DNA of 64,000 bases from an uncultured Actinomycetes bacterium. GTDB lineage: Bacteria > Actinomycetota > Thermoleophilia > Gaiellales > Gaiellaceae. The notes under the pieces are model-generated. The model made no database searches, had not been told where the DNA came from, and worked only from the letters and a program-made list of their open reading frames with translations. Positions 12,430-54,117 of the stretch are shown piece after piece; the first letter of the stretch is position 1; each line of letters opens with the position of its first letter. A program made the translations under genes and the position numbers. The stretch is taken from positions 7,390 to 71,389 of the forward strand of contig CAVSKK010000002.1 of assembly GCA_963728535.1 (NCBI GenBank). The letters are read 5' to 3'.

Positions 12430-13031
12430 ATGTCCGGTGTCAGACGCCGGACCGGTCCCGATCCGACGACTCAGCGCTCATAGATGAAGTCCCATGAACC
12501 GCGGAACGTGCTCCACGGCCACTGCGCTGGGTGCTCACAGAGTCCAGCCCGAACGGGATTTAGAGCGATGTATCTCAACGACTCCGAAAAGTGCTCTTCT
12601 GACTCGATCAACCGCGAGTCGAACCGCTGCTGGAAGAGATGCCCGACGAGCAAATGGCGCTCGTTGAAGTAGGCGGCGTAACCACTCTTCAGCCGCTGCA
12701 TGCCGGATGAGAGGTTTGTTTCAGGAGTCTCGACAAGCAGGTGAAAGTGGTTGGTCATGAGGCAGTAGGCGTGCAGGCGCCATCCCCATCGCCGGAAGAC
12801 ATGGGAGCGGAACATGAGGAACCACCGGCGATCGTCGTCGTCGTGAAAGATCGCCTGACGGCGGTTTCCTCGCGAGGTGACGTGGTAGATACCGCCGGCA
12901 TGTTGGATACGGGGAGGTCTGGGCATTAGCGCCAGGCTACGACGTGCTCAGGTCCGCCATGTGCTCGCGAGGTGTTCCTTGACGATTCCGGCTCAATCAC
13001 GGGACATGTCCGGCGTCTGACACCGGACATG
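12430..13031. mobile_element. RAYT unit: IS200-like Y1 transposase flanked by inverted REP-like hairpins
   Basis: The left hairpin gtccggtgtcagacgccggac (within 12430-12453) and the right hairpin catgtccggcgtctgacaccggacatg (within 13003-13031) have reverse-complementary cores. Each is itself an imperfect palindrome. Confidence 0.8.
12471..12926 (-). CDS. REP-associated tyrosine transposase (IS200/IS605 TnpA-like, HUH Y1)
   Basis: IYHVTSRGN..., HUH motif NHFHLLV, catalytic-Tyr region LRYIALNPVRAGL. 151 aa. Confidence 0.85.
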   Translation of the reverse strand: MPRPPRIQHAGGIYHVTSRGNRRQAIFHDDDDRRWFLMFRSHVFRRWGWRLHAYCLMTNHFHLLVETPETNLSSGMQRLKSGYAAYFNERHLLVGHLFQQRFDSRLIESEEHFSESLRYIALNPVRAGLCEHPAQWPWSTFRGSWDFIYER

Positions 13032-13092
13032 GGTGTTCGGGACACGGGTTTCGGGGTTTTCCACAGAATCACTAGACTCGGGGCCGGAGAGC

Positions 13093-14148
13093 ATGGGTCT
13101 CATGGGTTACTTCAACGGCTTCGGCGGTCGCGACATGGCGGTGGACTTGGGCACCGCGAACACGCTCGTCTACGTGCGTGGGCGCGGGATCGTCCTCTCG
13201 GAGCCGTCGGTCGTCGCGATCGACGAGCGCTCGGGCGAAGTCCACGCCGTCGGCGTCGAGGCCAAGCGCATGATCGGCCGCACCCCCGGCACCATCTCCG
13301 CGATCCGCCCGCTGAAGGATGGCGTCATCGCCGATTTCGACGTCACCGAGCAGATGCTCCGCCACTTCATCCAGAAGGTGCACCACCACCGCTTTGCGTA
13401 CCCGCGCGTCGTCGTCTGCGTCCCGTCAGGCGTCACCGGCGTCGAGAAGCGCGCCGTCGAAGAGGCAACGCGCTCGGCCGGTGCGCGAGAGGCTTACCTG
13501 ATCGAGGAGCCGATGGCCGCCGCGATCGGCGCCGGGCTCCCCGTCTCAGAACCGACCGGCAACATGATCGTCGACGTCGGCGGCGGCACGACCGAGGTCG
13601 CCGTCATCTCGCTCGGCGGGATCGTCGTCTCACAGTCCCTCCGTGTCGGCGGCGACGAGATGGACGAGGCGATCATCAGCCACATCAAGAAGGAGTACAA
13701 GCTCCTGATCGGCCAGCAGACGGCCGAGGAGGTCAAGCTCGAGATCGGCTCCGCGTTCCCGCTCCGCGAGGAGCTGCAGGCTGAGGTTCGAGGCCGAGAC
13801 ATGCTCACGGGCCTCCCGAAGACGATCATCCTGAGCTCGGAGGAGGTCCGGCAAGCCCTCGAGGAGCCCGTCGGCCAGATTCTGGACGCGATCCGCTCGA
13901 CCCTCGACAAGACCCCGCCCGAGCTCGCGGCGGACATCATGGACCGGGGGATCGTCCTCGCCGGCGGCGGTGCCCTGCTCTCGGGGCTCGACGAGCGCCT
14001 CCGCCACGAGACGCAGATGCCGGCACAGCTCGCCGAATCGCCGCTGACCTGCGTCGCGGTCGGCTCCGGCCGCAGTCTCGAAGTGCTCGAGGTCATGCAG
14101 AAGGCTGCGAAGTCGAGGTCGAAGAGCAGGAACGGCAGCAGGCGCTAG
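13093..14148 (+). CDS. mreB: rod shape-determining protein MreB
   Basis: [17 protein letters not shown]...[11 protein letters not shown]...[11 protein letters not shown] actin-fold motifs. ATG at 13093 follows ggagag. Confidence 0.97.
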
Positions 14149-14182
14149 GCCCGCTCCGGCCTGTTCGCTAACCTCAAAGCCC

Positions 14183-15133
14183 GTGCCTAGAAATCGCAGC
14201 GCGCGGGTGGCGGCGCTGGGCTCTCCGGTTCGGCGCGCAGTCGCCCCCAGGTATTCCTCGAAGACGACCGGCCCCCTGAAACGGCGGCTCGTCGTCGGGC
14301 TGCTCGTCCTCGCCTCGCTGGCGATGATCACCGTCTACTTCCGAGAGTCCCCGAACGGCGGCCTCCACGGCTTCCAGAGCGCCGGCGCGAGCGTGCTGCG
14401 CCCCTTCGAGATCGCTGCCGACCGTATCGCGAGCCCGTTCGAGGACGCCTACCACTGGACGGCTGACTTGTTTCACGCGCGCGCGGAGAACGAGGAGCTG
14501 CACAAGGAACTGAGCACCTTGCGCCAGCAGGCGATCCAGAATGCGAGCGCCGCCGACGAACTGGAGAGGCTCCGCGCCATCCTCAAGTACAAGCGCGGGC
14601 CCAACTACCCAGAGGACTTCCCGAACTCCGTTACGGCGAGCGTCATCTCGAATCCGGCCAGCCAGTTCGACCAGACCGTGGTCATCGCCGCGGGCCGCAC
14701 CAGCGGCATCCGGGTCTACGACGCTGTGGTCACCGATCGCGGCCTCGTCGGCCAGGTGACGAAGGTGACCCGCGACCAGGCCAAGGTCACCCTCCTCACC
14801 GACAAGGAGAGCGCGGTCACCGCGAAGGACCGCACGTCGGGCGCGATCGGCATCGTCCGCCACAGCCAGGGCTCGGAAGACGTCCTCTTCCTGGACCGCG
14901 TCGCGAAGAGCAACCAGGTCAAGGAGGGCGACCTCGTCATGACCGCCGGCCTCCAACAGGGGAAGCTCCCGTCGTTCTATCCCAAGGGGATTCCGATCGG
15001 CGTCGTCACGAAGGTCGGCCAGACCGACATCGACCCGTTCCAGGACGTCCAGGTGATGCCGCTCGTCGACTTCAGCTCGGTCGAGGCCGTGGTCGTCCTG
15101 ATCAGCGACAAGCCGCGGCCGAAAATGCCATGA
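14183..15133 (+). CDS. mreC: rod shape-determining protein MreC
   Basis: N-terminal TM helix, coiled coil (ENEELHKELSTLRQQ), C-terminal beta domains (GLVGQVTKV...GIPIGVV). Position between mreB and mreD. Confidence 0.88.
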   Translation: MPRNRSARVAALGSPVRRAVAPRYSSKTTGPLKRRLVVGLLVLASLAMITVYFRESPNGGLHGFQSAGASVLRPFEIAADRIASPFEDAYHWTADLFHARAENEELHKELSTLRQQAIQNASAADELERLRAILKYKRGPNYPEDFPNSVTASVISNPASQFDQTVVIAAGRTSGIRVYDAVVTDRGLVGQVTKVTRDQAKVTLLTDKESAVTAKDRTSGAIGIVRHSQGSEDVLFLDRVAKSNQVKEGDLVMTAGLQQGKLPSFYPKGIPIGVVTKVGQTDIDPFQDVQVMPLVDFSSVEAVVVLISDKPRPKMP

Positions 15134-23847: not shown

Positions 23848-25320
23848 TCACCAGTCGACCGACCACTGGTGGTCGAAGTTCGGCCCGCTGCGGAAGTACC
23901 ACATGCCTGTACTGATGCGGCGAAGCCCGATGTCGTCGACACCGTCGCCGTTGAAGTCTCCGGCGACCGGCTGGAGATCGGTGCCAGAGCCGCTCGTCCA
24001 GGAGTCGCTCCACTGGAAGTCGAAGTTCGGCCCGCTGCGGAAGTACCACATGCCTGTACTGATGCGGCGAAGCCCGATGTCGTCGACACCGTCGCCGTTG
24101 AAGTCGCCGGCGACCGGCTGGAGATCGGTGCCAGAGCCGCTCGTCCAGGAGTCGCTCCACTGGAAGTCGAAGTTCGGCCCGCTGCGGAAGTACCACATGC
24201 CTGTACTGATGCGGCGAAGCCCGGTGTCGTCGACACCATCGCCGTTGAAGTCGCCGGCGATCGGCTGGAGATCGGTGCCAGAGCCGCTCGTCCAGGAGTC
24301 GCTCCACTGGAAGTCGAAGTTCGGCCCGCTGCGGAAGTACCACATGCCTGTACTGATGCGGCGAAGCCCGGTGTCGTCGACACCATCGGCGTTGAAGTCG
24401 CCGGCGATCGGCTGGAGATCGGTGCCAGAGCCGCTCGTCCAGGAGTCGCTCCACTGGAAGTCGAAGTTCGGCCCGCTGCGGAAGTACCACATGCCTGTAC
24501 TGATGCGGCGAAGCCCGATGTCGTCGACGCGGTCACCGTTGAAGTCGCCGACAACCGGCTCTAAACCGGGTCCGCTGCCAGGAGGCGGGGGCGGTGGGGG
24601 TGGGGGCGGTGGGGGCGGAGGCGGTGGCGGCGGAGGCGGGGGTCCTCCCGCACAGCGCTGTCGCAGTCGTCGGTTCGACGATCCCAGTTTTCCGATGGGA
24701 GACCGCGCAGAAACCCGAGTGCCGGCGAGGCCCTTACTGATCCAGCACGAGTGCCTCGTCGAGCTCGCATTCTTGAGTTCGATGTGCGTATGCCGGGCGG
24801 TGTAACAACCATCGTCGGCGATCCGCTCCGCGGTAATCCTCCCAAGAACCGTGCCATTCCTAAAAGGACCAGTCGTCTTGAGGCGATCGAGGTGCGCGTA
24901 GCTCATCCAGCCCATATACGTGCGACCTGCGTAGACATGGAGCGCGATTCCATGCCCGCCGCGATTTGCGCCGCACGAATCCCACGTGTTGCGGAGTCGG
25001 AAAGTGAGCCGCCCCCGGGAGCTAGCGGCAAAAAGTCTGACGGGCGTGCCTGCCGGCGCGTACAGATCGGTAGCCCAGTCGCCCCCAAATGTGTGATGGA
25101 CAGAAGGGTGGCTTGAGGTTCTGTCGTTGTACGGGGGGCGGACGATGATGTTGTAGCCCCACCGGCCCGAAAAGGGCATTCCGACCGTCACGACCGGCGA
25201 TGCCGTCACGCCCCGGTCGCGGGCCTCGCGTGCCGCTCCCGTTCCTGCGCCGATGGTTGCGACCACTGCTACTCCCGCCGCAAGCACACCGAACAGAAGC
25301 CTGCGTTGTCGGAAGTTCAT
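23848..25320 (-). CDS. secreted M23-like metallopeptidase - polyproline linker - FG-GAP/VCBS-like repeat protein
   Basis: Signal peptide. M23-like HxxxD...HxH (HHTFGGDWATD ... ARHTHIE). 21 consecutive Pro codons. Then about 4.7 copies of a 49-aa unit containing GDFNGDGVDD. Confidence 0.85.
   Translation of the reverse strand: MNFRQRRLLFGVLAAGVAVVATIGAGTGAAREARDRGVTASPVVTVGMPFSGRWGYNIIVRPPYNDRTSSHPSVHHTFGGDWATDLYAPAGTPVRLFAASSRGRLTFRLRNTWDSCGANRGGHGIALHVYAGRTYMGWMSYAHLDRLKTTGPFRNGTVLGRITAERIADDGCYTARHTHIELKNASSTRHSCWISKGLAGTRVSARSPIGKLGSSNRRLRQRCAGGPPPPPPPPPPPPPPPPPPPPPGSGPGLEPVVGDFNGDRVDDIGLRRISTGMWYFRSGPNFDFQWSDSWTSGSGTDLQPIAGDFNADGVDDTGLRRISTGMWYFRSGPNFDFQWSDSWTSGSGTDLQPIAGDFNGDGVDDTGLRRISTGMWYFRSGPNFDFQWSDSWTSGSGTDLQPVAGDFNGDGVDDIGLRRISTGMWYFRSGPNFDFQWSDSWTSGSGTDLQPVAGDFNGDGVDDIGLRRISTGMWYFRSGPNFDHQWSVDW
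23866..24562. repeat. 147-bp tandem repeat, about 4.7 near-identical copies (coding)
   Basis: The marker cccgctgcggaagtaccacatgcc recurs at 23884, 24031, 24178, 24325 and 24472, exactly 147 bp apart. Only a few substitutions per unit. Confidence 0.95.
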
Positions 25321-25495
25321 CGCGAACCATCATATGCGCGCTTACGACGCACTCAAAGAGATACTCGACAAGAGAATCGGGAGACCATAGGTGTCAGGTC
25401 TTGCAATCACACAGTGTGGCACCGCAAGACCTGACACTGCACCTTTGTGGACGCCACGCCTTCGTCGCGTTCCAAGCCGCAATAGCCTTACGGTC

Positions 25496-26563
25496 ATGGA
25501 TCTGACGAAGATCGGCTTCGAGTTGAAGAACTACCGCTGCTTCCACGAGTCGGCTCCAGCGAAATTTGAGCTGGGTCATGGATTCACCTCATTCGTAGGC
25601 ACAAACAACTCAGGCAAATCCACCCTCCTCAGGTTCTTTTACGAGTTTCGCGAGCTCTTCCAGAAACTGGGGCCAAACCAGTTGGCAGGCACCATGCAAG
25701 CGTCTCCCCTCGGTATCAGCCTCCTTGGCACTTCCGACCCGGCGGATATCTACTCAGACACAAACCCCCGAGGGCTTAGCTTCACGATGTCTGTCAGCGC
25801 GAACGAGCCCTCCCCGCTGCCCGTCCCATCGCGGATCGAGTTCAGCCTTGAGCGTGGGAGCACAAATGTGACCGCCCAGGCGTACATCGAGGAAGAGCCG
25901 ATTCGCCGCGATTTGATCGGCTTCGATGTTGAGACGCTTCAGCTCGGCGGCGTTGGACACGTAGCGAACTTCGCGCCGTACTTCGAGGCATTCAGGCTTC
26001 TCTCCCAAGCGATATACATCGGTCCCTTCAGAAACGCCATCAACGCAGGTTCGACCGAGTCGTACTACGACCTGAACGTCGGGCAGGCATTCATCAGAGC
26101 CTGGCGACTGTTCAAGACCGGCCCATCACGGGCGAACCGCCTTGCGGCGATCGAAGTCACTGAGGTGATTCGTCGGATCTTCGACTTCGACGAGCTGGAG
26201 ATCAATGCGTCTGAGGACGCCGGCACCCTGGTGATCAACATCGACAACAAGCCCTATCACCTCCAAGAGCTAGGAGCTGGAATCGCTCACTTCATCATCG
26301 TCTTGGCTTACGCCGCCACACGTAAACCATCACTAATTCTGATTGATGAACCAGAGTCGAACCTCCACCCATCGCTACAGATGGACTTCCTGACGACCCT
26401 CGGGACATTTGGAAATTACGGCGTGGCTTTCGCTAGCCATAGTCTCGGCCTGGCTCGGGCAGCGAGCGAAACCATCTACTCCGTGCGACGGGAGCGCCAA
26501 GGGATCAGCCTGCTTCAACCGTTGAGGCCACGACCAACCTGGCGGAGTTCTTGGGCTCGTTGA
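25496..26563 (+). CDS. OLD/AAA15-type ABC ATPase (AriA/OLD N-terminal-domain-like)
   Basis: Walker A GTNNSGKST, signature-like LQELGAGIAHF, Walker B LILIDEPESNLHP, H-loop ASHS. ATG at 25496. The last ~15 codons (LRPRPTWRSSWAR) look out of frame. Lower GC than the surroundings. Confidence 0.85.
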   Translation: MDLTKIGFELKNYRCFHESAPAKFELGHGFTSFVGTNNSGKSTLLRFFYEFRELFQKLGPNQLAGTMQASPLGISLLGTSDPADIYSDTNPRGLSFTMSVSANEPSPLPVPSRIEFSLERGSTNVTAQAYIEEEPIRRDLIGFDVETLQLGGVGHVANFAPYFEAFRLLSQAIYIGPFRNAINAGSTESYYDLNVGQAFIRAWRLFKTGPSRANRLAAIEVTEVIRRIFDFDELEINASEDAGTLVINIDNKPYHLQELGAGIAHFIIVLAYAATRKPSLILIDEPESNLHPSLQMDFLTTLGTFGNYGVAFASHSLGLARAASETIYSVRRERQGISLLQPLRPRPTWRSSWAR

Positions 26564-27108
26564 GCTTTGCGGACTACCAGGAACTGGGATTCAGTTTGGT
26601 CGTCTTGGTCGAGGGTCCCACCGATACGGCTGCATTACAGCGCTTTCTCCGTCTCTACGGGATTGGGCACCAGATTGTCCTTCTTCCACTAGGTGGCAGC
26701 ACGACCATCAGGGCTACGGCAGAAAGCCAGCTCGAAGAACTCAAACGGATCACGACAAACCTCCACGTCCTAATCGATAGCGAGCGAGCAACCGAAGGAG
26801 CACCACTCGACAAGCCGCGGCGAGCATTTGTAGAGGCCTGCAAGGAATTGAGGATCGATTGCCATGTCCTAGAGAGGCGAGCGCTGGAGAACTACTTCCC
26901 AGACCGCGCCGTTAACGAAGTGAAGGGGCCGAAGTACAGAGCTCTTCGACCCTTCGAGAAGCTGGCGGATGTCAAGCCAGCGTGGAGCAAGGCGGAGAAT
27001 TGGCGAATCGCCAGCGCTATGACACGGGAAGAAGTTGAAGCTGCCGCCGACCTGGGCAAATTCCTCGCGAGGTTGGAGAAACTTTGCGCGAAGGCATCTA
27101 GCCGTTAG
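26551..27108 (+). CDS. OLD-type Toprim nuclease domain protein (AriB/OLD C-terminal-domain-like)
   Basis: Toprim Glu motif VLVEGPTD, acidic motif LIDSE, distal ALENYF. TTG start overlaps the ATPase ORF by 13 nt in the -1 frame. This frame is open for at least ~30 codons upstream (VEATTNLAEFLGSL...). Confidence 0.8.
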   Translation: MGSLSFADYQELGFSLVVLVEGPTDTAALQRFLRLYGIGHQIVLLPLGGSTTIRATAESQLEELKRITTNLHVLIDSERATEGAPLDKPRRAFVEACKELRIDCHVLERRALENYFPDRAVNEVKGPKYRALRPFEKLADVKPAWSKAENWRIASAMTREEVEAAADLGKFLARLEKLCAKASSR

Positions 27109-27321
27109 TTCCCAAAGGCCAACTACCGAACGCTGCCGAGGTATCTCCGGAATCAACTGCTTAATGCTCGGCGACGAGCGGCCGATAGCCCTCAGGAGCA
27201 GCAACCACACCTGCTGCTACCGTAGGACCCGAAGTTTTTATGAGTTTTTCCACTTACCCACGCTGCGCGCGCACCGCCCTTCGGGTGTCGTCTGCGCGCG
27301 CGCCACAGAAGGAGTTTTCGT
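27109..27321 (+). promoter_or_regulatory. structured 5' leader of rne (candidate)
   Basis: Hairpins agcagca/tgctgct and gcgcgcgca/tgcgcgcgc, then GAAGGAG 8 nt before the TTG start. Confidence 0.3.
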
Positions 27322-29955
27322 TTGCTGAAGCTGTTTCGACGCAAGCTACGCCCGGAGAGGGCCGCCAGTGAGACTGCCCCTCCAGCGCCACCACCAGCAG
27401 TAACCCGGCCGCCCGCTGAGGCGGGCGCACAAGGCACTCGACCACGACGAAGACGCGGATCCCGCGGCGGTCGCAACCGGCGTAAGCCTGCCGGCTCGGC
27501 CACCGCCACCGAGACCGCGACCAAGACCGAAGAGCCCAAGACCGCCGAGAAGAAGCCCGAGCGCAAGCCTCCCCAGAAGCGCCAGCGCTCCCAGCAGCAG
27601 TCCCGCCGCCGAGTCCCGGCCCGCCGCCCGCCGCTGCCGAAGGCGAAGCGTGAGCTACTCGTCTCCGTAGACGTCGGCGAACAACGTGTCGCCGTCATCG
27701 AGGACGGCCGGCCCGCCGAGGTCTACCTCGAGCGCCCGGAACGCCGCTCGATCGCGGGCAACATCTACAAGGGCACCGTCGACAACGTCCTCCCCGGCAT
27801 GGAGGCCGCGTTCGTCGAGATCGGCCTCGAGAAGAACGGCTTCCTCTACGTCGACGAGATCGTCGGCCCCGAGCTCGAAGGCAAGAGACACGGCCGAAAG
27901 ATCCAGGACCTGATCAAGCGCGGCCAGACGATCCTCGTCCAGTCCGTCAAGGACCCGATGAAGTCGAAGGGCGCGCGGCTCACCACGGAGATTTCTCTCC
28001 CCGGCCGCTTCGTCGTCTTCGTCCCGCACGGCGAGGGCCTCGGCGTCTCGCGCCGGCTCGACGACGCCGAGCGCGACCGCCTGCGCGACATCGTCAAGGC
28101 GATCGCACCCAAGAAGGGCGGCGTCATCGTCCGCACCGCAGCCGAAGGCGCTTCAGACGAGGACGTCGAGCGCGACCTCGTCTTCCTCCAGCGCCTCTGG
28201 AAGTCGATCGAGGCCAACGCCGAGAAGGCGAAGGCGCCCGCGCTCGTCTACCAGGAGGCCGAGCTGCCGCTTCGCGTCACGCGCGACCTCTTCACCGGCG
28301 ACTTCGAGAAAGCCGTCATCGACGACGAGCGCACGCACAAGCGCATCGTCGGCTACCTGAAGAAGACCTCGCCCCACATGGTCGACCGCGTCATCCGCTA
28401 CCGCGAGAAGACGCCGCTCTTCGAGCAGACCGGCGTCGAGGACGCGATCCAGTCGACGCTCTCGCGCCGGGTCGACCTGCCCTCCGGCGGCTACCTCGTC
28501 TTCGACTACGCCGAAGCGTTCACCGTCATCGACGTCAACACCGGCCGTTTCGTCGGATCGCGCTCGAAGAGCTCGACCGGGCGGCTCGAGGACACGATCA
28601 CGGCGAACAACCTGGAGGCCGTCAAGGAGGTCGTCCACCAGCTCCGGCTGCGCGACATCGGGGGGATCATCGTCATCGACTTCATTGACATGGGGAGCCC
28701 GAAGAACCGGGCAACCGTCGAGGAGGCGCTGAAGAACGAGCTCGAGCGAGACAGGACGAAGACATACGTCGTCGAGATCTCGCCGCTCGGCCTCGTCGAG
28801 ATGACGCGCCAGAACGTGACCGAGGGCCCACGCGAGATCCTCACGCAGAAGTGCCCGACCTGCGCGGGAGACGGAATCGTCCTCTCGACGCACTCCGCCG
28901 CGATCGACGCCGAGCGGCGCCTGCGGGCGCTCGCTGCGGGCTCGAAGCGCGGGTTGGAGGCCTACCGCGTCGAGATGGAGGCAAACGTCGCCTCGCACGT
29001 CATCGGCCCGGGCGCCCTGCGTCTGGCCGAGATCGAGCGGCTCTCGAAGCGCAGGTTCTTCATCGAGGGCAAGGCCGGCGTCGCGCTCGACCACTTCAAG
29101 GTCGGCGCCGAGGGCAAGCTCGTCGACCTCGCGCCGAAGGCTCCCGTCGAAGAGGGCGCGGAGATCCGGATCGAGCTCGTCGAAATCGGCCGTCACGACG
29201 TGAACGCGGGCATCGGCAAAGTCGACGGCCTGTCTGTCTCCGTCGCCGACGCGTCGAAGCTCGTCGGCAAGAAGGTGAAGGCCCGCGTCGAGCGCGTGCT
29301 GGACGGGGTCGCATACGCGACGCTCGTCCAGGCCGCGACGGCCAAGGTCGCGGTTCCGATCACCGCCGAGTCCGAGGCCGAGAAGCCGACGCGTGCCGTA
29401 CGCAAGAAGACGACGGATCCGAAGATCGAGGTTCCAAAAATCGAGGCTCCGGAGAAGGAGCAGGAGCCCGCCGCCGAGGCTGCTGAAGAGACTGTGGAAG
29501 CCGTCGCCGAGGAGGAGTCGCCCGCCGACGAGCCCGCTGCCGAGGCGAAGCCCGATGCCGAGGCGACTCCCGATGGCGCAGCCCCGCCGAAGAAGCGAAC
29601 CAGGCGCGGCTCACGCGGAGGCCGCAACCGGCGCAAGAAGCCGGCGGCAGCGGTCGCAGCCGAGAACGGCGAGCCGCCCGCAGACCAGGTGCCGAAGCCC
29701 GAGCCCCAGTCCCAGCCGCGACCCCAGCGGCAGCGTCAGCCCAAGCCGAAGGCCGACGGCGCATCGACCGCCACGATCCACGTCCCGTCTGCCGATCTGG
29801 GCACCGACGGCGACAACACGTCTGCTGCGGAGGGCGAGCAGCCAACCCCGAAGAAGCGAACGCGCCGCGGCAGCCGAGGCGGCCGAAACCGCCGCAAGAA
29901 GCCGGCAGGCGCCGGGACAGCGCCGGAAGCGAAGTCCGAGCCCTCCAGCGGCTGA
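27322..29955 (+). CDS. rne: ribonuclease E/G
   Basis: S1 domain (IYKGTVDNVLPGMEAAFVEIG), catalytic core (VIDVNTG, IGGIIVIDFIDM), Zn-link CPTCAGDG. Arg-rich disordered N- and C-terminal arms. Confidence 0.95.
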   Translation: MLKLFRRKLRPERAASETAPPAPPPAVTRPPAEAGAQGTRPRRRRGSRGGRNRRKPAGSATATETATKTEEPKTAEKKPERKPPQKRQRSQQQSRRRVPARRPPLPKAKRELLVSVDVGEQRVAVIEDGRPAEVYLERPERRSIAGNIYKGTVDNVLPGMEAAFVEIGLEKNGFLYVDEIVGPELEGKRHGRKIQDLIKRGQTILVQSVKDPMKSKGARLTTEISLPGRFVVFVPHGEGLGVSRRLDDAERDRLRDIVKAIAPKKGGVIVRTAAEGASDEDVERDLVFLQRLWKSIEANAEKAKAPALVYQEAELPLRVTRDLFTGDFEKAVIDDERTHKRIVGYLKKTSPHMVDRVIRYREKTPLFEQTGVEDAIQSTLSRRVDLPSGGYLVFDYAEAFTVIDVNTGRFVGSRSKSSTGRLEDTITANNLEAVKEVVHQLRLRDIGGIIVIDFIDMGSPKNRATVEEALKNELERDRTKTYVVEISPLGLVEMTRQNVTEGPREILTQKCPTCAGDGIVLSTHSAAIDAERRLRALAAGSKRGLEAYRVEMEANVASHVIGPGALRLAEIERLSKRRFFIEGKAGVALDHFKVGAEGKLVDLAPKAPVEEGAEIRIELVEIGRHDVNAGIGKVDGLSVSVADASKLVGKKVKARVERVLDGVAYATLVQAATAKVAVPITAESEAEKPTRAVRKKTTDPKIEVPKIEAPEKEQEPAAEAAEETVEAVAEEESPADEPAAEAKPDAEATPDGAAPPKKRTRRGSRGGRNRRKKPAAAVAAENGEPPADQVPKPEPQSQPRPQRQRQPKPKADGASTATIHVPSADLGTDGDNTSAAEGEQPTPKKRTRRGSRGGRNRRKKPAGAGTAPEAKSEPSSG

Positions 29956-30028
29956 GCTAGATCCTCTTCGGTTCGAATGGGACGCGTGGCGCCCCGAGGA
30001 CGCGAAGCGTCTGCTCGCCGGGATCGAC

Positions 30029-30559
30029 GTGCCTTGGTACGTCGCCGCCGGCTGGGCCATCGACCTCTACCTGGGCGGAGAGCACCGGGAGCACGAGGAT
30101 CTCGAGCTCGCGGTCCCGAACAGCCGCTTCGACGAGGTCGCCGAGGCTCTCGACGGGTTCGAGATCTACGTCATCACGGGGCCCGGTCGAGCCGCGCCGC
30201 TCGCTGAGGCCCGCGACCAGCTCGAGGAAACCCATCAGACCTGGGTTCTAGACCCGACCAAGGACCTCTGGCGGCTCGACGTCTTCCGCGAGCCCTCCGA
30301 CGGCGACACGTGGATCTGCCGCCGCGACGAGAGCATCAGGCTCTCCTACGACCACGTGATCGAGTGGACGGAAGACGGTATTCCGTACGGCCGGCCGGAG
30401 ATCGTCCTGCTCTTCAAGGCGAAGCACTCCCACCGGGAGCGCGACCAGCGCGACTTCGAGGCGGTCGTCCCGCGGCTCGAGCCGGAGCGCCGGCGCTGGC
30501 TCGCAGAGGCGCTCGAGCTCGTCCACCCGGGCCACCCGTGGCTCGCGGAGCTGGGCTAG
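30029..30559 (+). CDS. ANT(2'')-like nucleotidyltransferase-family protein
   Basis: WYVAAGWAIDLYLGGEHREHEDLELAV resembles the WIGGGWAIDxxLG...HDDIDL motif of aminoglycoside 2''-nucleotidyltransferase-family proteins. Start uncertain: there is no ATG/GTG/TTG between the rne stop and GTG 30029. Confidence 0.7.
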   Translation: MPWYVAAGWAIDLYLGGEHREHEDLELAVPNSRFDEVAEALDGFEIYVITGPGRAAPLAEARDQLEETHQTWVLDPTKDLWRLDVFREPSDGDTWICRRDESIRLSYDHVIEWTEDGIPYGRPEIVLLFKAKHSHRERDQRDFEAVVPRLEPERRRWLAEALELVHPGHPWLAELG

Positions 30560-31626: not shown

Positions 31627-32475
31627 CTACCTCCGCTTCGAATCGACCGATCGATCTTCCTCCCGTAGGACCCCCTGGTCAAGCGCGAAGTAGATCGCTG
31701 CGGCGGCGAGAATCGTCACGCCCCAGGCCCAGTTCACGCCGGGGCGGAGCATGTCCGGGACCGTCCACGAGGCCCAGCCGCGCTCGACGATCTGCTCGTT
31801 CCAGCCGTCGTTCGCCATGTTCCCGACGCCGTAGGGGATCATCACCGAGAGGTAGACGGCGAGCGCGGTGCGCAGCCGCGTCGGAGTCATCCGCGGGAGC
31901 TCCCGTGACAGGAGGAGCGCCGTCAGGACGAGCAGGAGCCCCTGGAGGCCATGGTGCTCGCCGAGATGGACGGCAGCATGCCCCTCGAAGACCTGCTTCG
32001 AGCGGAAGATCGATGCCAGCCCCGGCACGTCGCCGATGTAGAGCCCGACCTCGGCGAAGATCCACGGCAGCGCGAGGACCGCAAGCACCGTCGCAACAGC
32101 GATTCGCACGCGGTCGCCGTCTGCGCTCCCCGATCCCCCGATCCCGCCCGCGCGTACGGCGAAGAGGGTCATTGCGAGCACGATCGCGACGCCGAGGGCG
32201 GGGAGGACGTTGATCCACTGCGCGTCGAGATCGTTCTCGTCGACGACTCCCGGTACGAGGATCACGAGGCACAGCCCGAGCGGCAGAAGCGAAGGCCAGC
32301 GCGTGCCGAGCCGGTCGGTCACGAGCGCGAGCACTGCGATCGCCATCAGCGCAACCGGGAAGTTCAGGAAAACGAGCACGCGGCCCGCTCCGCCGGCGAG
32401 TCCGCCGTGGGTGACGTTGTAGAGCCCCGCCGGGGCCACGAGCGAGTACGTCAGGAGCACGGAGAGCCCAACCAC
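31627..32475 (-). CDS. polytopic membrane protein (possibly the DUF2182-type partner of DUF1326)
   Basis: Multiple TM helices and a His-rich loop EGHAAVHLGEHHG. Lies immediately upstream of the DUF1326 gene on the same strand. Start uncertain (GTG 32475 or TTG 32577). The rest of the ORF-track call is antisense to rplU. Confidence 0.6.
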   Translation of the reverse strand: MVGLSVLLTYSLVAPAGLYNVTHGGLAGGAGRVLVFLNFPVALMAIAVLALVTDRLGTRWPSLLPLGLCLVILVPGVVDENDLDAQWINVLPALGVAIVLAMTLFAVRAGGIGGSGSADGDRVRIAVATVLAVLALPWIFAEVGLYIGDVPGLASIFRSKQVFEGHAAVHLGEHHGLQGLLLVLTALLLSRELPRMTPTRLRTALAVYLSVMIPYGVGNMANDGWNEQIVERGWASWTVPDMLRPGVNWAWGVTILAAAAIYFALDQGVLREEDRSVDSKRR

Positions 32476-32577
32476 CGCGACAAGGCTCCAGACGACGAGA
32501 GCTTCGGCGAGCCCCGGGCCGCGCGAACCTTGGCTAAACTGACTCTCTCGCGGGCTCGAGCCCGCGTTTCCACGCAA

Positions 32578-32994
32578 ATGGCCGATTACGCGATCATCGC
32601 ACTGGGTGGCAAGCAATACCGCGTCCGCGAGGGCGAGAAGCTGCTCGTGGACCGGGTCAAGACCGACGAGGGCAAGACGTTCCATCCGGACCTCCTCTTC
32701 GTCGGCGGCGACGGCAAGGCCGAGTTCAAGCCCAAGACGCAGGTGACCGCGAAGGTCGTCGGTCACGTCCTCGGCGAGAAGATCCGGATCGGCAAGTACA
32801 AGGCGAAGAAGGGTTACCGGCGACACACCGGCTACCGCAGCAAGCTGACGCAGATCGAGATCACGTCGATCGGTGCGAAGGCCGCGGCCGCGAAGCCCAA
32901 GAGCGAGGCGGCCGAGAAGAAGCCTGCCGCCGAGAAGAAGCCGGCCGCAGCGAAGAAGCCGGCAGCGTCCACGACGAAGAAGGCAGAGAGCTAA
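32578..32994 (+). CDS. rplU: 50S ribosomal protein L21 with Lys/Ala-rich C-terminal extension
   Basis: [27 protein letters not shown]..., then a tail [39 protein letters not shown]. Confidence 0.95.
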
Positions 32995-33248
32995 TGGCAC
33001 ACAAAAAAGGTCTTGGTTCCTCCAGGAACGGTCGCGACTCGCAGGCCAAGCGCCTCGGCGTGAAGATCTACGACGGCCAGACGGTGATCGCGGGCATGAT
33101 CCTTGTCCGCCAGCGCGGCACGAAGTTCCGGCCGGGCAACGGCGCGGGCATCGGCCGCGACCACACGATTTTCGCCAAGCGCGACGGCAAGGTCGCGTTC
33201 GAGACGAGCGGCGAGCGCCGCGTCGTCGCCGTCACCGACTCGGAGTAG
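32994..33248 (+). CDS. rpmA: 50S ribosomal protein L27
   Basis: [24 protein letters not shown]... TAATG overlap with rplU. Confidence 0.97.
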
Positions 33249-33253
33249 GACCC

Positions 33254-34441
33254 GTGTTCCACGATCGCGCGCGCATCCGGGTGAAAGCCGGGCGCGGCGG
33301 CGACGGCGCGATGAGCTTCCGGCGCGAGAAGCACGTCCCCAAGGGCGGGCCCGACGGCGGTGACGGCGGGCCGGGTGGAGACGTCGTCGTTGTCGCCGAC
33401 CCGGATCTCCGCGACCTGTCGGCGCTGCAGCGGCGCAAGTGGATCGAGGCCAAGCGCGGCCAGTCCGGCGGGGGCTCGGGGAAGCACGGCGCTTCGGGCG
33501 AGAGCGTCGAGCTGCGCGTGCCCGCCGGGACGCAGATCTACGAGGACGACAAGCTCGTCGCCGACCTCGCGAGCCCGGGCGCGCGCGTGGTCCTCGGGCG
33601 CGGCGGGGCCGGGGGGAGAGGGAACCGCCGCTTTGCGACCCCGACGCGGCAGACGCCCCGCTTCGCCGAGGTCGGCTTGCCCGGCGAAGAGGCCCAGCTC
33701 GAGCTGCGGCTGAAACTCATGGCCGACGCGGCGCTCGTCGGGCTCCCAAATGCGGGGAAGTCGTCACTCCTGACGCGGATCTCGAACGCGCGGCCCAAGG
33801 TCGCCGAATACCCGTTCACGACGCTCGCGCCGATTCTCGGCACGGTCGACGCGCCAGACGGGCGGCAGCTGACCGTCGCGGACGTTCCCGGGCTGATCGA
33901 GGGCGCGAGCGAGGGCGTCGGCCTCGGCCACGAGTTCCTCGCGCACCTGGAGCGCGCCCGTCTACTCGTGCACGTGATCGACTCCGCGGACGGCGAGCCC
34001 GCCGAGCGCTGGGCTGCGATCGACCGCGAGCTGACCGCCTACGGGGCCGGCCTCGACGAGCTCCCGCAGGTCGTGGTCCTGAACAAGACCGATCTGCTTC
34101 CCGAGCCGCCCAGGCTCGACGTCGAGGACGAGCGGATCATCGCGGTCTCTCTCGTCTCGTGCGCGACCGGCGCGGGTATCGAGGAGTTCCGCCGGGGTCT
34201 CTTCCAGCACGTGCCGGAGCCCGAGGCGCTTCCCGAGGCGAGCCCCGAAGGGCTGGCCGACTTCCTCGTCTATCGGCCCGAGCCGCGCGGCCGGCGCTTC
34301 CGGATCTTCCGCACCGACACGGGCTTCCGCGTCATGGGCCGCCCGCCCGGCGACGCGGAGCTGGCGGAGGCCCTGAAGGCTGCCGGGGCGAAGACGGGCG
34401 ACGAGGTCGCGATCGGCGACGAGGTGAGCGAGCTCGCGTGA
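33254..34441 (+). CDS. obg: GTPase Obg/CgtA
   Basis: VFHDRARIRVKAGRGGDGAMSFRREK glycine-rich Obg fold. G1 GLPNAGKSS, G3 DVPGLIEGA, G4 NKTD. Confidence 0.96.
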   Translation: MFHDRARIRVKAGRGGDGAMSFRREKHVPKGGPDGGDGGPGGDVVVVADPDLRDLSALQRRKWIEAKRGQSGGGSGKHGASGESVELRVPAGTQIYEDDKLVADLASPGARVVLGRGGAGGRGNRRFATPTRQTPRFAEVGLPGEEAQLELRLKLMADAALVGLPNAGKSSLLTRISNARPKVAEYPFTTLAPILGTVDAPDGRQLTVADVPGLIEGASEGVGLGHEFLAHLERARLLVHVIDSADGEPAERWAAIDRELTAYGAGLDELPQVVVLNKTDLLPEPPRLDVEDERIIAVSLVSCATGAGIEEFRRGLFQHVPEPEALPEASPEGLADFLVYRPEPRGRRFRIFRTDTGFRVMGRPPGDAELAEALKAAGAKTGDEVAIGDEVSELA

Positions 34442-51970: not shown

Positions 51971-53761
51971 GTGGGAAGTTTCAAGGTCAGGCTTGCTGTC
52001 TACTTCGCGCTGGTCGCGGTGCTCCCATTTGCGGCCGCTTTCCAGGGTTTTCAGTCGCTTTCCAGGAAGAGCGAGACACGCCGGGTCGACGCCGTGCTCC
52101 AGTCAGGCCTGCGCTCGGCCATCGTCGCCTATCAGGACGACCTCGCCGGCACGCAGGACTCCGCCACCAGGTTTGCGAACAAGCGGGACCTTCAGCGAGC
52201 CTTGCTGACGAACGACCGCAGAGCGCTCGCGCGGATCGTCAGAGCTGCGCCGGACTTTCGCGTCGATGCGGGGCGACTGACGGTCGGCCGGACACCCACG
52301 CCTGCCGTGACGCGCGTTGTGTCCGTGCGCGGGCCTGACGGCCGCCTCGCCGACGTGATTGCAGCCTTGCCGCTCGACGCAAAGCTTGCCCGCAGCCTCG
52401 AGCGTCGCGCCGGGATCGAGCCCGGCCAGCGACTCGTCTTCGTCGAACAAGGGCGCGTCGTCACCGGCTCCGGTCTCCCCGGCGCAAAGCTCCTGCTTCA
52501 AGCCGGCCAGACTGAACCGGTCGATCTCGGCGGCACTGATTACCGAGCCATCCAGTCCGGACCACTGAGCATGCCTGAGGGGACCAGGATTCTGCTCCTG
52601 ACGCCGCAGAGTGCGATCGATCGCGCCACGGCGTCCACCGAGCGGCGGCTGATGCTGACCATGCTGATCACGCTCGTCCTGCTGATGCTGATCGCGTACT
52701 TCGAGGGGCGATCGATCGTGAGCAGGCTCAGCAGCTTCGCCGCGGCTGCGAACGACATCGCGCGCGGCCGGCTCGACCGCCGAGTGAAGATCAAGGGCCG
52801 GGACGAGTTTGCCCGGCTCGGCCTGGCCTTCAACGAGATGGCCGACGAGCTCGAAGCCCGGCGGCGCGAGCTCGACGAGGAGCGCCGTCGCCTCCGTGAC
52901 GCCACGATGCGCTTCGGCGAGGCGCTCTCGGCCACCCACGACCCGGCCGAGCTGCTCCGAGTGTTCGTCGAAACCGCTGTCGAGTCGACGGGCGCCAGTG
53001 GAGGCGTGTTCGTCGACGAGCAGGGCGAAATCGTGCGAATTGGCGATCCCGACGCCGGCGCAAAGGAGCTCGCGTTGCCCGTGACAGCAGGAGAGGAGAC
53101 CTTCGGGACGCTCGTCCTCTCGGGCGACGACTTCACGCAGGACCAGACCGAGACGGCGAATTGGCTGGCCGGTCATGCCGCGATTGCGGTCGGGAACGCC
53201 CGCTTGCACCGAGCCGTGCAACGCCAGGCGCTCGTGGACGGTCTCACCGGCCTCGCAAACCGCCGCCCATGCGAGGATGCGTTGAAGAGGGAAGTCGCTC
53301 GCGCAAAGCGCCTCGGCGACCCGCTGACGATCATCGTCGCCGACCTGGACGACTTCAAGGCCGTGAACGACGCGCACGGCCATCCCACCGGCGACAAGGT
53401 GCTGCGCGAGTTCGCGGAGGCGCTGAAGGCGAGCGTCCGCGAGGTCGACGTCGCGAGTCGCTGGGGCGGCGAGGAGTTCGTCGTCGTCCTGCCGGGCACT
53501 GATGAAGCCGGAGGCGCGCGAGTCGCCGAGCGCATCCGTGAGGAGTTCGCGCTGCGTGCGGCGCTGGCCCCGAGCGGCCGGCCGATCATCTCGACGGCCA
53601 GCTTCGGGGTCGCCGGTTTTGCCGGACGAGGCGGCACGAGTGAGCTCCTGGCAGCCGCCGACGCCGCTCTCTACAGGGCAAAACGGGCAGGCAAAGACCG
53701 GGTTGCCACTGGAAAAGGCCCGGACGAGCCCGACGTGCAGGCCGCTCGGTTGGGCGCCTGA
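51971..53761 (+). CDS. diguanylate cyclase (periplasmic sensor - HAMP - GAF - GGDEF)
   Basis: Two TM helices, HAMP (RLSSFAAAANDIARGRLDRRVKIKGRDEFARLGLAFNEMADEL), GAF-like region, active site RWGGEEF. Confidence 0.92.
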   Translation: MGSFKVRLAVYFALVAVLPFAAAFQGFQSLSRKSETRRVDAVLQSGLRSAIVAYQDDLAGTQDSATRFANKRDLQRALLTNDRRALARIVRAAPDFRVDAGRLTVGRTPTPAVTRVVSVRGPDGRLADVIAALPLDAKLARSLERRAGIEPGQRLVFVEQGRVVTGSGLPGAKLLLQAGQTEPVDLGGTDYRAIQSGPLSMPEGTRILLLTPQSAIDRATASTERRLMLTMLITLVLLMLIAYFEGRSIVSRLSSFAAAANDIARGRLDRRVKIKGRDEFARLGLAFNEMADELEARRRELDEERRRLRDATMRFGEALSATHDPAELLRVFVETAVESTGASGGVFVDEQGEIVRIGDPDAGAKELALPVTAGEETFGTLVLSGDDFTQDQTETANWLAGHAAIAVGNARLHRAVQRQALVDGLTGLANRRPCEDALKREVARAKRLGDPLTIIVADLDDFKAVNDAHGHPTGDKVLREFAEALKASVREVDVASRWGGEEFVVVLPGTDEAGGARVAERIREEFALRAALAPSGRPIISTASFGVAGFAGRGGTSELLAAADAALYRAKRAGKDRVATGKGPDEPDVQAARLGA

Positions 53762-53823
53762 GCGGCGCTAGGTTACAATCCGCGACCACCTGCAAACGCG
53801 ACCGACCGACCTGGGAGGCCCGA

Positions 53824-54117
53824 ATGCCGGTAGAGACGCCTTCCGTCTTTGCCAACGTCATACAGGAGCACCTCGAGCTCAAGCGCCGTAACTCGGAGCT
53901 CGAGTCGGACATGCCCCTGCAGAAGTACGAGACCGAGGATCCGTTCGAGAATCACCCGCTCTTCAAGACCGAAGAGCAGGCGCGGACCGAGGAGACGATG
54001 GACGGCGAAGAGTCCATCCCGGCCGAGCAGCTGGCAACCCTCGCTCCGCAGCCCGAGCAGCCCCAGGAAGAGGACACGCTCTGGGGCCGTTCGCGGGACT
54101 TCGACTGGGGCGACTAG
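53824..54117 (+). CDS. small acidic hypothetical protein (97 aa)
   Basis: GGGAGG RBS and a TACAAT-like box upstream. Glu/Asp-rich sequence ending WGRSRDFDWGD. Confidence 0.55.
   Translation: MPVETPSVFANVIQEHLELKRRNSELESDMPLQKYETEDPFENHPLFKTEEQARTEETMDGEESIPAEQLATLAPQPEQPQEEDTLWGRSRDFDWGD

What the first reader, a model, noticed from the sequence alone, without database searches (positions are those of the whole stretch)
25496..27108. Compact OLD/PARIS-like ABC-ATPase plus Toprim nuclease, split across two frames in a low-GC islet
Seen in sequence. There is a 355-aa ATPase with Walker A GTNNSGKST, Walker B LILIDEPESNLHP and H-loop ASHS. A 185-aa ORF follows, carrying the Toprim Glu motif VLVEGPTD, LIDSE and a distal ENYF. 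The two ORFs overlap by 13 nt with the second in the -1 frame. The second frame stays open and protein-like for at least ~30 codons upstream (VEATTNLAEFLGSL). The first frame ends in an implausible tail (LRPRPTWRSSWAR). The locus and its flanks are visibly lower in GC than the housekeeping genes around it, and it sits between an accessory peptidase gene and rne. Established knowledge: ABC-ATPase plus OLD-type Toprim is the architecture of P2 Old, of Gabija GajA and of the two-gene PARIS system (AriA ATPase, AriB Toprim). All are phage-defence or exclusion modules. Inference: this is one of three things. It may be a class-1 OLD gene inactivated by a 1-nt deletion. It may be a naturally split AriA/AriB-like pair, noticeably smaller than the PARIS proteins as I remember them. 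Or it may use a programmed -1 shift. With no helicase, HNH or other partner adjacent, it would be a minimal stand-alone variant.
Basis: partly seen in the sequence, partly recalled or inferred. Interest (0 to 1): 0.7.

Follow-up and report, generated by a model that had tools for sequence, protein, structure and literature searches.

The report
Frameshifted stand-alone OLD-like nuclease gene
The two overlapping ORFs are the halves of one horizontally acquired ATPase-plus-Toprim nuclease gene, distantly related to the phage-exclusion protein Old of phage P2, whose reading frame is broken by a missing base; it is an ordinary disrupted or mis-assembled gene, not a new two-gene system.

Summary
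ORF1 (25496-26563, 355 aa) is an ABC-type ATPase. ORF2 (26551-27108, 185 aa) is a Toprim domain in the -1 frame. The locus has the lowest GC in the window (57.0% against 66.8%).

The split is not a design feature. An in-silico repair gives a 537-aa protein. Nearly all relatives are single proteins of about 520-550 aa. The two closest (83% and 73% identical) are exactly 537 aa. They read ...VQP-Y-EATPNLAEF... where the window has ...LQP / TT / EATTNLAEF..., so one base is missing from codon 343 (26522-26523).

There is no slippery heptamer and no significant downstream structure. The nominal TTG start of ORF2 cuts through a conserved linker motif.

The family is a divergent, uncharacterised, stand-alone OLD-family clade (class-1-like):
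- Profile against Thermus scotoductus OLD (6P74): E 2.5e-8.
- hhalign against P2 Old: probability 96.5%.
- The modelled Toprim domain's best fold matches are 6P74 and AriB, both weak.
- No DUF4435 match and no conserved neighbour genes.

The window copy keeps 120 of 124 highly conserved positions. It is therefore either a very recent pseudogene or an assembly error; reads are needed to decide. Interest is low.

The parts
25496..26521 (+). Codons 1-342 of the gene (frame 1): ABC-type ATPase domain with an insertion at about residues 52-170, up to ...RRERQGISLLQP
   Evidence: Pfam AAA_15 5.9e-16 and AAA_21 1.6e-12. 84.5% identical to residues 1-342 of P0001. The start matches P0001 (MDLTKI...).
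25598..25624 (+). Walker A / P-loop GTNNSGKST (G35-T43)
   Evidence: Read from the sequence. G35, N37, N38, G40, K41 and S42 are invariant in 49 homologues.
26333..26371 (+). Walker B and D-loop region LILIDEPESNLHP (D284, E285 and H291 invariant)
   Evidence: Aligned to the EPEMYLHP of Ts OLD 6P74 and the DEPELYLHPS of P2 Old.
26432..26443 (+). H-loop ASHS (H315; S314 where 46 of 49 homologues have T)
26522..26523 (+). Remnant 'TT' of codon 343: site of the one-base loss that moves the reading frame by -1
   Evidence: P0001, P0002, P0004, P0005 and P0006 have Tyr here (..QP-Y-EATP..), with frame 1 matching before and frame 2 matching after. The family-HMM score of the repaired protein peaks for junctions at 26515-26524. 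The repaired length of 537 equals that of P0001 and P0002.
26522..26563 (+). Out-of-frame tail of ORF1 (LRPRPTWRSSWAR, then stop)
   Evidence: Has no counterpart in any homologue.
26524..27108 (+). Codons 344-537 plus stop (frame 2): linker helices (EATTNLAEFLGSLSFADYQELGF), Toprim domain and C-terminal helices
   Evidence: 81.9% identical to P0001 344-537. AF2 model pLDDT 93.5. Best fold matches are Ts OLD 6P74 and AriB 8UX9_A.
26551..26553 (+). TTG: the nominal start of ORF2, lying inside the conserved linker motif LAEF-L-GxLSF; probably not a real start
   Evidence: The motif is conserved (L349, G354, L356, S357). GGAG lies only 3 nt upstream.
26602..26625 (+). Toprim motif VLVEGPTD: E373 (invariant) and D377 (D or E in 49 of 49)
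   Evidence: Aligned to the LLVEG of Ts OLD (E377 and D381 are metal ligands, PMC7049728) and to the LLVEGKTE of P2 Old.
26776..26784 (+). D428-S429-E430 acidic motif, at the position where Toprim enzymes have DxD
   Evidence: D428 and S429 are invariant; E430 is present in 48 of 49. The assignment to metal site A is an inference from motif order, not from a superposition.
26887..26895 (+). E465-N466-Y467, an invariant distal motif (candidate second-metal ligand)
   Evidence: Invariant in 49 of 49. The role is inferred.
25250..27250 (.). Low-GC islet (0.55-0.59) holding the gene and both of its intergenic flanks

Best explanation
This is one gene, not two. It is a horizontally acquired, stand-alone gene of 537 codons. 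It encodes an N-terminal ABC-type ATPase fused to a C-terminal Toprim nuclease domain. It belongs to a large, uncharacterised clade that is distantly but significantly related to OLD-family nucleases (P2 Old, Thermus scotoductus OLD).

In this genome one base has been lost from codon 343 (window 26522-26523). Translation therefore leaves the ATPase after ...LLQP, runs through 13 junk codons and stops. The Toprim half lies in the -1 frame without a credible start.

By analogy with characterised OLD proteins, intact relatives presumably work as follows (inferred, not shown). Nucleotide-dependent dimerisation of the ATPase heads controls a metal-dependent Toprim nuclease, which cuts DNA or tRNA during phage infection.

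The copy in this window is most likely a very recent pseudogene. At most it makes an ATPase-only product. The sequence shows that the frame is broken, and homology shows that the ancestral state is fused. That the deletion exists in the organism rather than only in the assembly is inferred.
For: Fused ancestral state:
- The repaired protein finds 1518 relatives. Of the best 120, 119 are single proteins of about 509-614 aa covering 93-100% of it. P0001 (83% identical) and P0002 (73%) are both exactly 537 aa. The only 355-aa hit is the window's own ORF1.
- 38 of 42 complete loci in species-representative genomes carry one ORF of 497-708 aa.
- A search with the Toprim half alone found 948 clusters. 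The hits are nearly all 500-580 aa with the match at the C-terminus. The short hits span a continuous range of 171-500 aa, as fragments would.

Position of the break:
- Homologues read QP-Y-EATP where the window has QP / TT / EATT.
- The HMM score of repaired proteins is highest for junctions at 26515-26524.

OLD relationship:
- Family profile against 6P74: E 2.5e-8, running from the signature, Walker B and H-loop region into the Toprim LLVEG.
- hhalign against P2 Old: probability 96.5%, E 7e-10, 296 columns.
- PADLOC Old model: 2.3e-13.
- The Toprim model (pLDDT 93.5) has 6P74 and AriB as its top two fold matches.
- The full model (pLDDT 89.4) matches Rad50, SMC, PtuA, GajA and Eco8 ATPases.

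Stand-alone and foreign:
- No flanking protein cluster recurs in more than 3 of 39 loci.
- The family is scattered over more than 12 phyla plus archaea.
- The gene is 57.0% GC against 66.8% for the window, the lowest in the window.

A real mutation is plausible:
- Other homologues are independently broken: a frameshift in L039, an IS3-like insertion in L031 and an internal stop in L035.
- The site is not a long homopolymer.
- The window carries uninterrupted ORFs of 1109, 1055, 904 and 825 codons, so the assembly is not riddled with indels.
Against: Nothing else in the gene is degraded. It keeps 120 of 124 columns that are at least 90% conserved, and the four differences are conservative. The C-terminal half is no more diverged than the N-terminal half: 81.9% against 84.5% to P0001, where the P0001-to-P0002 baseline is 75.1% against 75.7%. 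That pattern fits a sequencing or assembly error as well as a very recent mutation.

No reads, and no DNA of the closest relatives, could be obtained.

The Toprim assignment rests on sub-threshold Pfam scores (19.9 against 23.2 bits; only 13 of 49 members reach E<0.01) and on weak Foldseek E-values (0.03-0.04).

The defence function has not been tested for any member of this clade.
Confidence: 0.6

Rival explanations
1. The missing base is a sequencing or assembly error. In the organism the gene is intact and encodes a normal 537-aa stand-alone OLD-like ATPase-Toprim protein.
For: All catalytic and conserved motifs are intact (120 of 124 conserved columns). There is no excess divergence downstream of the shift. 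There is no second lesion. The source looks like a draft or metagenome-type contig: 98 kb, with unnamed proteins. If the lost base was a T of a TTT (Phe) codon, it would be a short homopolymer contraction.
Against: The site holds only a 2-nt run. The five closest homologues have Tyr, not Phe, at this codon. Long ORFs elsewhere in the window are uninterrupted. Homologues in other genomes are also found disrupted by unrelated lesions.
Confidence: 0.3
2. The split is functional. The ATPase (355 aa) and the Toprim protein (185 aa, from TTG 26551) are made separately and act together, as AriA and AriB do in PARIS. This would be a recent gene fission.
For: Two-gene ATPase plus Toprim systems exist: PARIS, and the PADLOC candidates PDC-M55A/B and mad3/mad4, whose models give weak hits here. 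GGAG lies upstream of the TTG. An E. coli class 1 OLD (YbjD) is reported to give phenotypes that need the ATPase but not the Toprim domain (PMC13261556 abstract), so an ATPase-only product need not be inert.
Against: No relative shows this split as a conserved state. The split leaves the conserved NLAEF part of the linker motif in neither product, and ORF2 would begin inside a predicted helix. The Shine-Dalgarno spacing is only 3 nt and the start is TTG. There is no DUF4435 or AriB signature. ORF1 carries a 13-residue junk tail.
Confidence: 0.06
3. Programmed -1 ribosomal frameshifting joins the two frames into one full-length protein.
For: The second frame is in -1, and both frames are open over 26443-26563.
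Against: There is no X_XXY_YYZ heptamer and no run longer than 3 nt in the overlap. Homology places the junction at CCG-TT-GAG, which is not slippery. The downstream RNA fold is no better than shuffles (z -1.1). Relatives encode the protein in a single frame.
Confidence: 0.02

Closest known systems
Class 1 OLD-family nucleases (P2 Old; Thermus scotoductus OLD, PDB 6P74; Vibrio cholerae Vc OLD; E. coli YbjD)
   Same: [quoted passage not shown] The EPExxLHP region and the LLVEG Toprim glutamate align. Distribution is patchy.
   Different: Sequence similarity is only remote: about 25% identity over 296 columns to P2 Old. Pfam OLD-like_TOPRIM stays below its threshold. No NCBIfam or PADLOC model covers the whole protein. 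The acidic motif is D-S-E rather than DxD. The AF2 model shows the ATPase insertion as mostly beta strands. No member has been characterised. The copy in this window is frameshifted.
PARIS (AriA ATPase plus AriB DUF4435/Toprim; class 4 OLD), including its fused single-gene forms
   Same: ABC ATPase plus Toprim nuclease logic. AriB (8UX9_A) is the second-best fold match of the Toprim half. Two ORFs are present here.
   Different: There is no DUF4435 match in the window or in 49 family members. The PADLOC AriA hits are generic AAA_15/AAA_21-type partial matches and no AriB model hits. The two ORFs arise from a frameshift, and their sizes (39 and 20 kDa) are unlike the 55 and 35 kDa of AriA and AriB (PMC11464382 abstract).
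Gabija GajA (class 2 OLD)
   Same: ATPase-Toprim fusion; weak hits to the ATPase region.
   Different: There is no adjacent UvrD-like helicase (GajB) in the window or in 39 related loci. The protein is shorter than GajA.
Uncharacterised OLD clades U1-U11 described with Cran1 (PMC12796447)
   Same: That paper reports many well-supported uncharacterised OLD clades, bacterial and mixed, beyond classes 1-4. This family may be one of them.
   Different: Not tested. The paper's dataset was not compared with this family.

Membership tests
OLD-family nucleases (any class) | N-terminal ABC-type ATPase with Walker A Lys, Walker B acidic pair and H-loop | tested here: met
   AAA_15 and AAA_21 in the window's ORF1 and in 49 of 49 family members. 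K41, D284, E285 and H315 are invariant. The fold matches Rad50, SMC, GajA and Eco8 heads.
OLD-family nucleases (any class) | C-terminal Toprim domain with the conserved Glu and acidic metal ligands | tested here: inconclusive
   E373 is invariant, D/E377 is 49 of 49, D428-S-E430 and E465 are invariant. However, Pfam OLD-like_TOPRIM scores 19.9 bits against a 23.2 cut-off, and only 13 of 49 members reach E<0.01. Foldseek's top hits are 6P74 (E 0.028) and AriB (E 0.042), with probabilities 0.93-0.94.
OLD-family nucleases (any class) | Detectable homology to a bona fide OLD protein across the ATPase-Toprim junction | tested here: met
   Family profile against Ts OLD 6P74: E 2.5e-8, profile positions 259-407. 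hhalign against P2 Old: probability 96.5%, E 7e-10.
Class 1 OLD | Stand-alone gene with no conserved helicase, reverse transcriptase or other partner | tested here: met
   The window flanks are an FG-GAP repeat protein on the opposite strand and RNase E/G. No neighbour cluster recurs in more than 3 of 39 related loci.
Class 1 OLD | One polypeptide of about 500-600 aa (the cut-off used in PMC12392090) | tested here: not met
   The family meets it (about 509-570 aa). The window copy as sequenced does not: it is split into 355 and 185 aa by a 1-nt deletion. It would be 537 aa if repaired.
Class 1 OLD | Metal-dependent nuclease and ATPase activities; anti-phage or exclusion phenotype | not testable with these tools
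   Needs biochemistry and phage challenge.
PARIS (AriA/AriB) | Effector with a DUF4435-type Toprim domain (AriB) | tested here: not met
   No DUF4435 hit at E<=1 for ORF2, and none among 49 members at E<=0.01. No AriB model among the PADLOC hits.
PARIS (AriA/AriB) | ATPase and Toprim encoded as two conserved separate genes (or a recognised fused form) | tested here: not met
   The separation here is a frameshift inside a gene that is single in relatives.
Gabija (GajA/GajB) | UvrD/PcrA-like helicase gene immediately downstream | tested here: not met
   The downstream gene is RNase E/G. No helicase cluster is found in the related loci.
Programmed -1 ribosomal frameshift site | Slippery heptamer X_XXY_YYZ at the junction plus a stimulatory downstream structure, conserved in relatives | tested here: not met
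   No heptamer. Fold z = -1.1. Relatives are in a single frame.

The most novel reading that the evidence does not exclude
The family itself is an unrecognised, widespread class of single-gene OLD-like defence nuclease. It comprises at least 948 clusters at 50% identity, is found in more than 12 phyla, and is not captured by any Pfam Toprim, NCBIfam or PADLOC model at full length. Its distinctive features are a D-S-E metal motif, an invariant ENY motif and a beta-rich ATPase insertion. On this reading, the window's broken copy would be a natural snapshot of fission of a class-1-type gene into an AriA/AriB-like pair that still functions.
Probability: 0.06. Interest if true: 0.5.

Novelty: new member of a known kind. 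Interest (0 to 1): 0.2.

Why it matters
For this window it matters little. The locus is a broken or mis-assembled copy of a single accessory gene, and the apparent 'compact two-gene system' disappears once homologues are consulted.

There are two modest points of value. First, annotation: the 355-aa ATPase and the unannotated 185-aa ORF should be joined and flagged as a frameshifted OLD-like gene. Second, the parent family is large, phylogenetically scattered, stand-alone and uncharacterised, and current defence-system profile libraries do not cover it at full length. An intact member such as P0001 would therefore be a reasonable candidate when testing whether stand-alone OLD-like proteins give phage defence. 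The field lists that as an open question (PMC10568477).

Tried and rejected
- **DNA of the closest relatives.** It could not be fetched, because the sample files for P0001 and P0002 are too large. The metagenome scan returned only relatives of 53% identity or less. So no nucleotide-level alignment of the indel and no dN/dS were possible.
- **Window's own contig.** An exact look-up of the window's ORF1 found no contig on record. ORF2 as a 185-aa protein is not in the protein collection. The source organism was not identified.
- **Whole-protein Foldseek.** It was dominated by the ATPase head and said nothing about the C-terminus. The Toprim half was therefore modelled separately.
- **NCBIfam.** It gave only far-sub-threshold hits: MADS3 at 44 bits against a 420 cut-off, plus PtuA and ABC transporters. 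It gave nothing for the Toprim half.
- **Phage and plasmid collections.** There was no phage match and only plasmid matches of 22-28% identity. PHROGs gave only an unannotated OLD-like family, phrog_4747.
- **Mobile-element boundaries.** No flanking direct repeats or tRNA were found that would mark one.
- **Frame-plot gene caller.** A crude caller was too noisy to list other frameshifts. It was used only to show that very long ORFs are intact.
Full report
**Observation**

- ORF1 runs from ATG 25496 to the stop at 26563 (355 aa). The mechanical ORF list extends it to GTG 25391, but the closest homologue starts MDLTKI..., as the ATG version does.
- ORF1 holds Walker A GTNNSGKST, the LILIDEPESNLHP Walker B region and an ASHS H-loop.
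- ORF2 runs from TTG 26551 to the stop at 27108 (185 aa). It holds VLVEGPTD, IDSE and ENYF.
- The ORFs overlap by 13 nt and ORF2 is in the -1 frame.
- Frame 2 is open from 26443 and reads ...VEATTNLAEFLGSL before the TTG. Frame 1 ends LRPRPTWRSSWAR*.

The gene is 57.0% GC in a window of 66.8% (sd 2.5% for equal-length segments). That is the lowest of 624 segments. GC3 is 71% and 66% in the two halves, against 88% for the adjacent RNase E/G gene.

Pfam gives AAA_15 (5.9e-16) and AAA_21 (1.6e-12) for ORF1. For ORF2 the best hit is OLD-like_TOPRIM, but it is below the gathering score (19.9 against 23.2 bits).

Downstream is RNase E/G (27322-29955). Upstream, on the other strand, is a 490-aa protein in which Pfam sees only FG-GAP repeats. 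There is no helicase, HNH or reverse-transcriptase gene next to the locus.

**One gene or two**

I joined frame 1 (to 26521) and frame 2 (from 26521) in silico and searched the 5.8-billion-protein collection.
- 1518 proteins matched.
- 119 of the best 120 are single polypeptides of about 509-614 aa covering 93-100% of the fusion.
- The two closest, P0001 (83% identity) and P0002 (73%), are each exactly 537 aa, which is the repaired length.
- The only 355-aa hit (P0003, 100% identical) is this window's own ORF1.

In species-representative genomes, 38 of 42 complete loci carry one ORF of 497-708 aa.

Searching 1.84 billion cluster representatives with the Toprim half alone found 948 clusters (371 at E<=1e-30). 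Among the best 150, nearly all are 500-580 aa with the match at the C-terminus. The shorter ones span a continuous range of 171-500 aa, as contig-end fragments do. The fused state is therefore ancestral and general.

**Where the frame breaks**

P0001 reads ...RRERQGVSHVQP-Y-EATPNLAEFLGSLSFADYQELGF. The window reads ...RRERQGISLLQP in frame 1 (ending at 26521), then TT (26522-26523), then EATTNLAEFLGSLSFADYQELGF in frame 2 (from 26524).

Five of the six homologues inspected have Tyr at the damaged codon, and the sixth has Leu.

The family-HMM score of repaired proteins rises to a plateau of 756-757 bits for junctions at 26515-26524 and falls on either side.

The lesion is therefore the loss of one base from codon 343.

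**Programmed frameshifting is unsupported**
- No X_XXY_YYZ heptamer and no run longer than 3 nt lies in 26440-26563.
- The 106 nt from 26515 fold no better than shuffles (z -1.1).

**A functional split is also unlikely**
- The TTG lies inside the family's highly conserved linker motif (TPRLAEFLGELSFSGY; L349, G354, L356, S357). The NLAEF part would be encoded in neither product.
- The GGAG upstream of the TTG is only 3 nt away.

**What the family is**

*Sequence and profile evidence*
- A profile of 49 diverse members hits Thermus scotoductus class 1 OLD (6P74) best among all PDB sequences (E 2.5e-8). The alignment runs from the signature, Walker B and H-loop region into the Toprim LLVEG.
- hhalign against P2 Old gives probability 96.5%, E 7e-10, over 296 columns, again pairing LLVEG with LLVEGKTE.
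- PADLOC's Old model scores 2.3e-13. Its AriA hits are generic AAA_15/AAA_21-type partial matches, and no AriB model hits.
- DUF4435 is absent from ORF2 and from all 49 members. OLD-like_TOPRIM reaches E<0.01 in only 13 of 49.

*Structure models*
- The AF2 model of P0001 (pLDDT 89.4) matches Rad50, SMC, PtuA, GajA and Eco8 ATPase heads.
- The model of the window's own Toprim half (pLDDT 93.5) has Ts OLD and AriB as its two best PDB matches. The E-values are weak (0.028 and 0.042; probabilities 0.93-0.94).

*Conserved residues*
- Invariant or near-invariant residues are E373, D/E377, D428-S429-E430 and E465-N466-Y467.
- They fall in the order of the Ts OLD metal ligands E377, D381, D431/D433 and S478/E480 (PMC7049728).
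- The correspondence beyond the first two is inferred.

*Context and distribution*
- No flanking protein family recurs in more than 3 of 39 loci.
- Members occur in Cyanobacteriota, Chloroflexota, Acidobacteriota, Planctomycetota, Actinomycetota, Verrucomicrobiota, Bacillota, Nitrospirota, Pseudomonadota, candidate-phyla-radiation (CPR) lineages and Methanoperedens.

By the context-based definition (PMC10568477, PMC12392090), this is a class-1-like OLD gene: stand-alone and 500-600 aa. By sequence it is a divergent clade that no curated model covers. It may correspond to one of the uncharacterised clades reported in PMC12796447; I did not test that.

**Mechanism**

Characterised OLD proteins couple an ABC ATPase to a two-metal Toprim nuclease.
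- Ts OLD and P2 Old cut DNA in vitro, and Vc OLD nicks DNA (PMC7049728, PMC12392090).
- AriB and P2 Old are reported to cut tRNA (titles and abstracts of PMC12409363 and PMC12445682).

I infer that intact members of this family act in the same way, as ATP-controlled nucleases in phage defence. The substrate cannot be inferred from sequence.

In the window copy the ATPase would be made with a 13-residue junk tail, and the Toprim half would lack its linker and a good start. The nuclease function is most likely lost.

**Real mutation or artefact**

The copy is otherwise pristine.
- 120 of 124 columns that are at least 90% conserved are retained, and the four changes are conservative.
- The C-terminal half is no more diverged than the N-terminal half (81.9% against 84.5% to P0001; baseline 75.1% against 75.7%).

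This fits a very recent mutation or an assembly error equally well.

Slightly favouring a real mutation:
- The site is not a long homopolymer.
- The window holds unbroken ORFs of 1109, 1055, 904 and 825 codons.
- Homologues elsewhere are independently inactivated: a frameshift in L039, an IS3-like insertion in L031, an internal stop in L035 and a truncation in L047.

I put it at roughly 2:1 for a real pseudogene. Only reads can decide.

**Verdict**

The locus is a frameshifted (or mis-assembled) member of a divergent stand-alone OLD-like family. It is not a compact PARIS-like pair and not a recoding site. Novelty: new member of a known kind. Interest is low.

Noticed in passing
window 25391-25437: A strong hairpin in the low-GC intergenic region, 59 nt upstream of the gene's ATG. 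Its perfect 14-nt outer arms are GTGTCAGGTCTTGC / GCAAGACCTGACAC. The RNA fold is -32.4 kcal/mol with z -4.5. It has no T-tract and is unique in the window. It could be an operator, an insertion scar or a terminator for neither gene; its role is unexplained.
   Followed up: partly
window 23848-25320 (minus strand): A 490-aa protein with 4.7 tandem copies of a 147-nt unit at 97% identity (23863-24560), encoding FG-GAP repeats. It also has a poly-proline linker of about 22 residues (24584-24639). Repeats this similar suggest recent expansion or ongoing gene conversion.
   Followed up: partly
L031 9409-10754; L039 about 6665; L035 8789-8841; L047: Homologues of the same family in other genomes are independently disrupted. 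L031 has an IS3-like transposase pair inserted at residue 466. L039 has a +1 frameshift near residue 393. L035 has an internal stop, or possibly an alternative genetic code. L047 has only the C-terminal half. Frequent decay is typical of accessory or defence genes, but some of these could be errors in metagenome-assembled genomes (MAGs).
   Followed up: partly
P0001 residues about 86-158 (equivalent to window 25751-25969): In the AF2 model, the insertion between Walker A and the Q-loop-like YIGPFRN motif is built mostly of beta strands. Whether this replaces the dimerisation domain described for Ts OLD was not examined.
   Followed up: no
window 29978-30559: The ORF immediately after the RNase E/G gene has a weak match to aminoglycoside-2''-adenylyltransferase (PF10706, E 1e-6, N-terminal 50 residues only). 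It is probably a nucleotidyltransferase-fold protein and has normal GC.
   Followed up: no
window 13021-15133, 31909-34441, 53644-54117: Same-strand stop-to-stop coding-like segments overlap by 100-145 nt in different frames. This is probably just open frame upstream of the true starts. They were not checked for further frameshifts.
   Followed up: no
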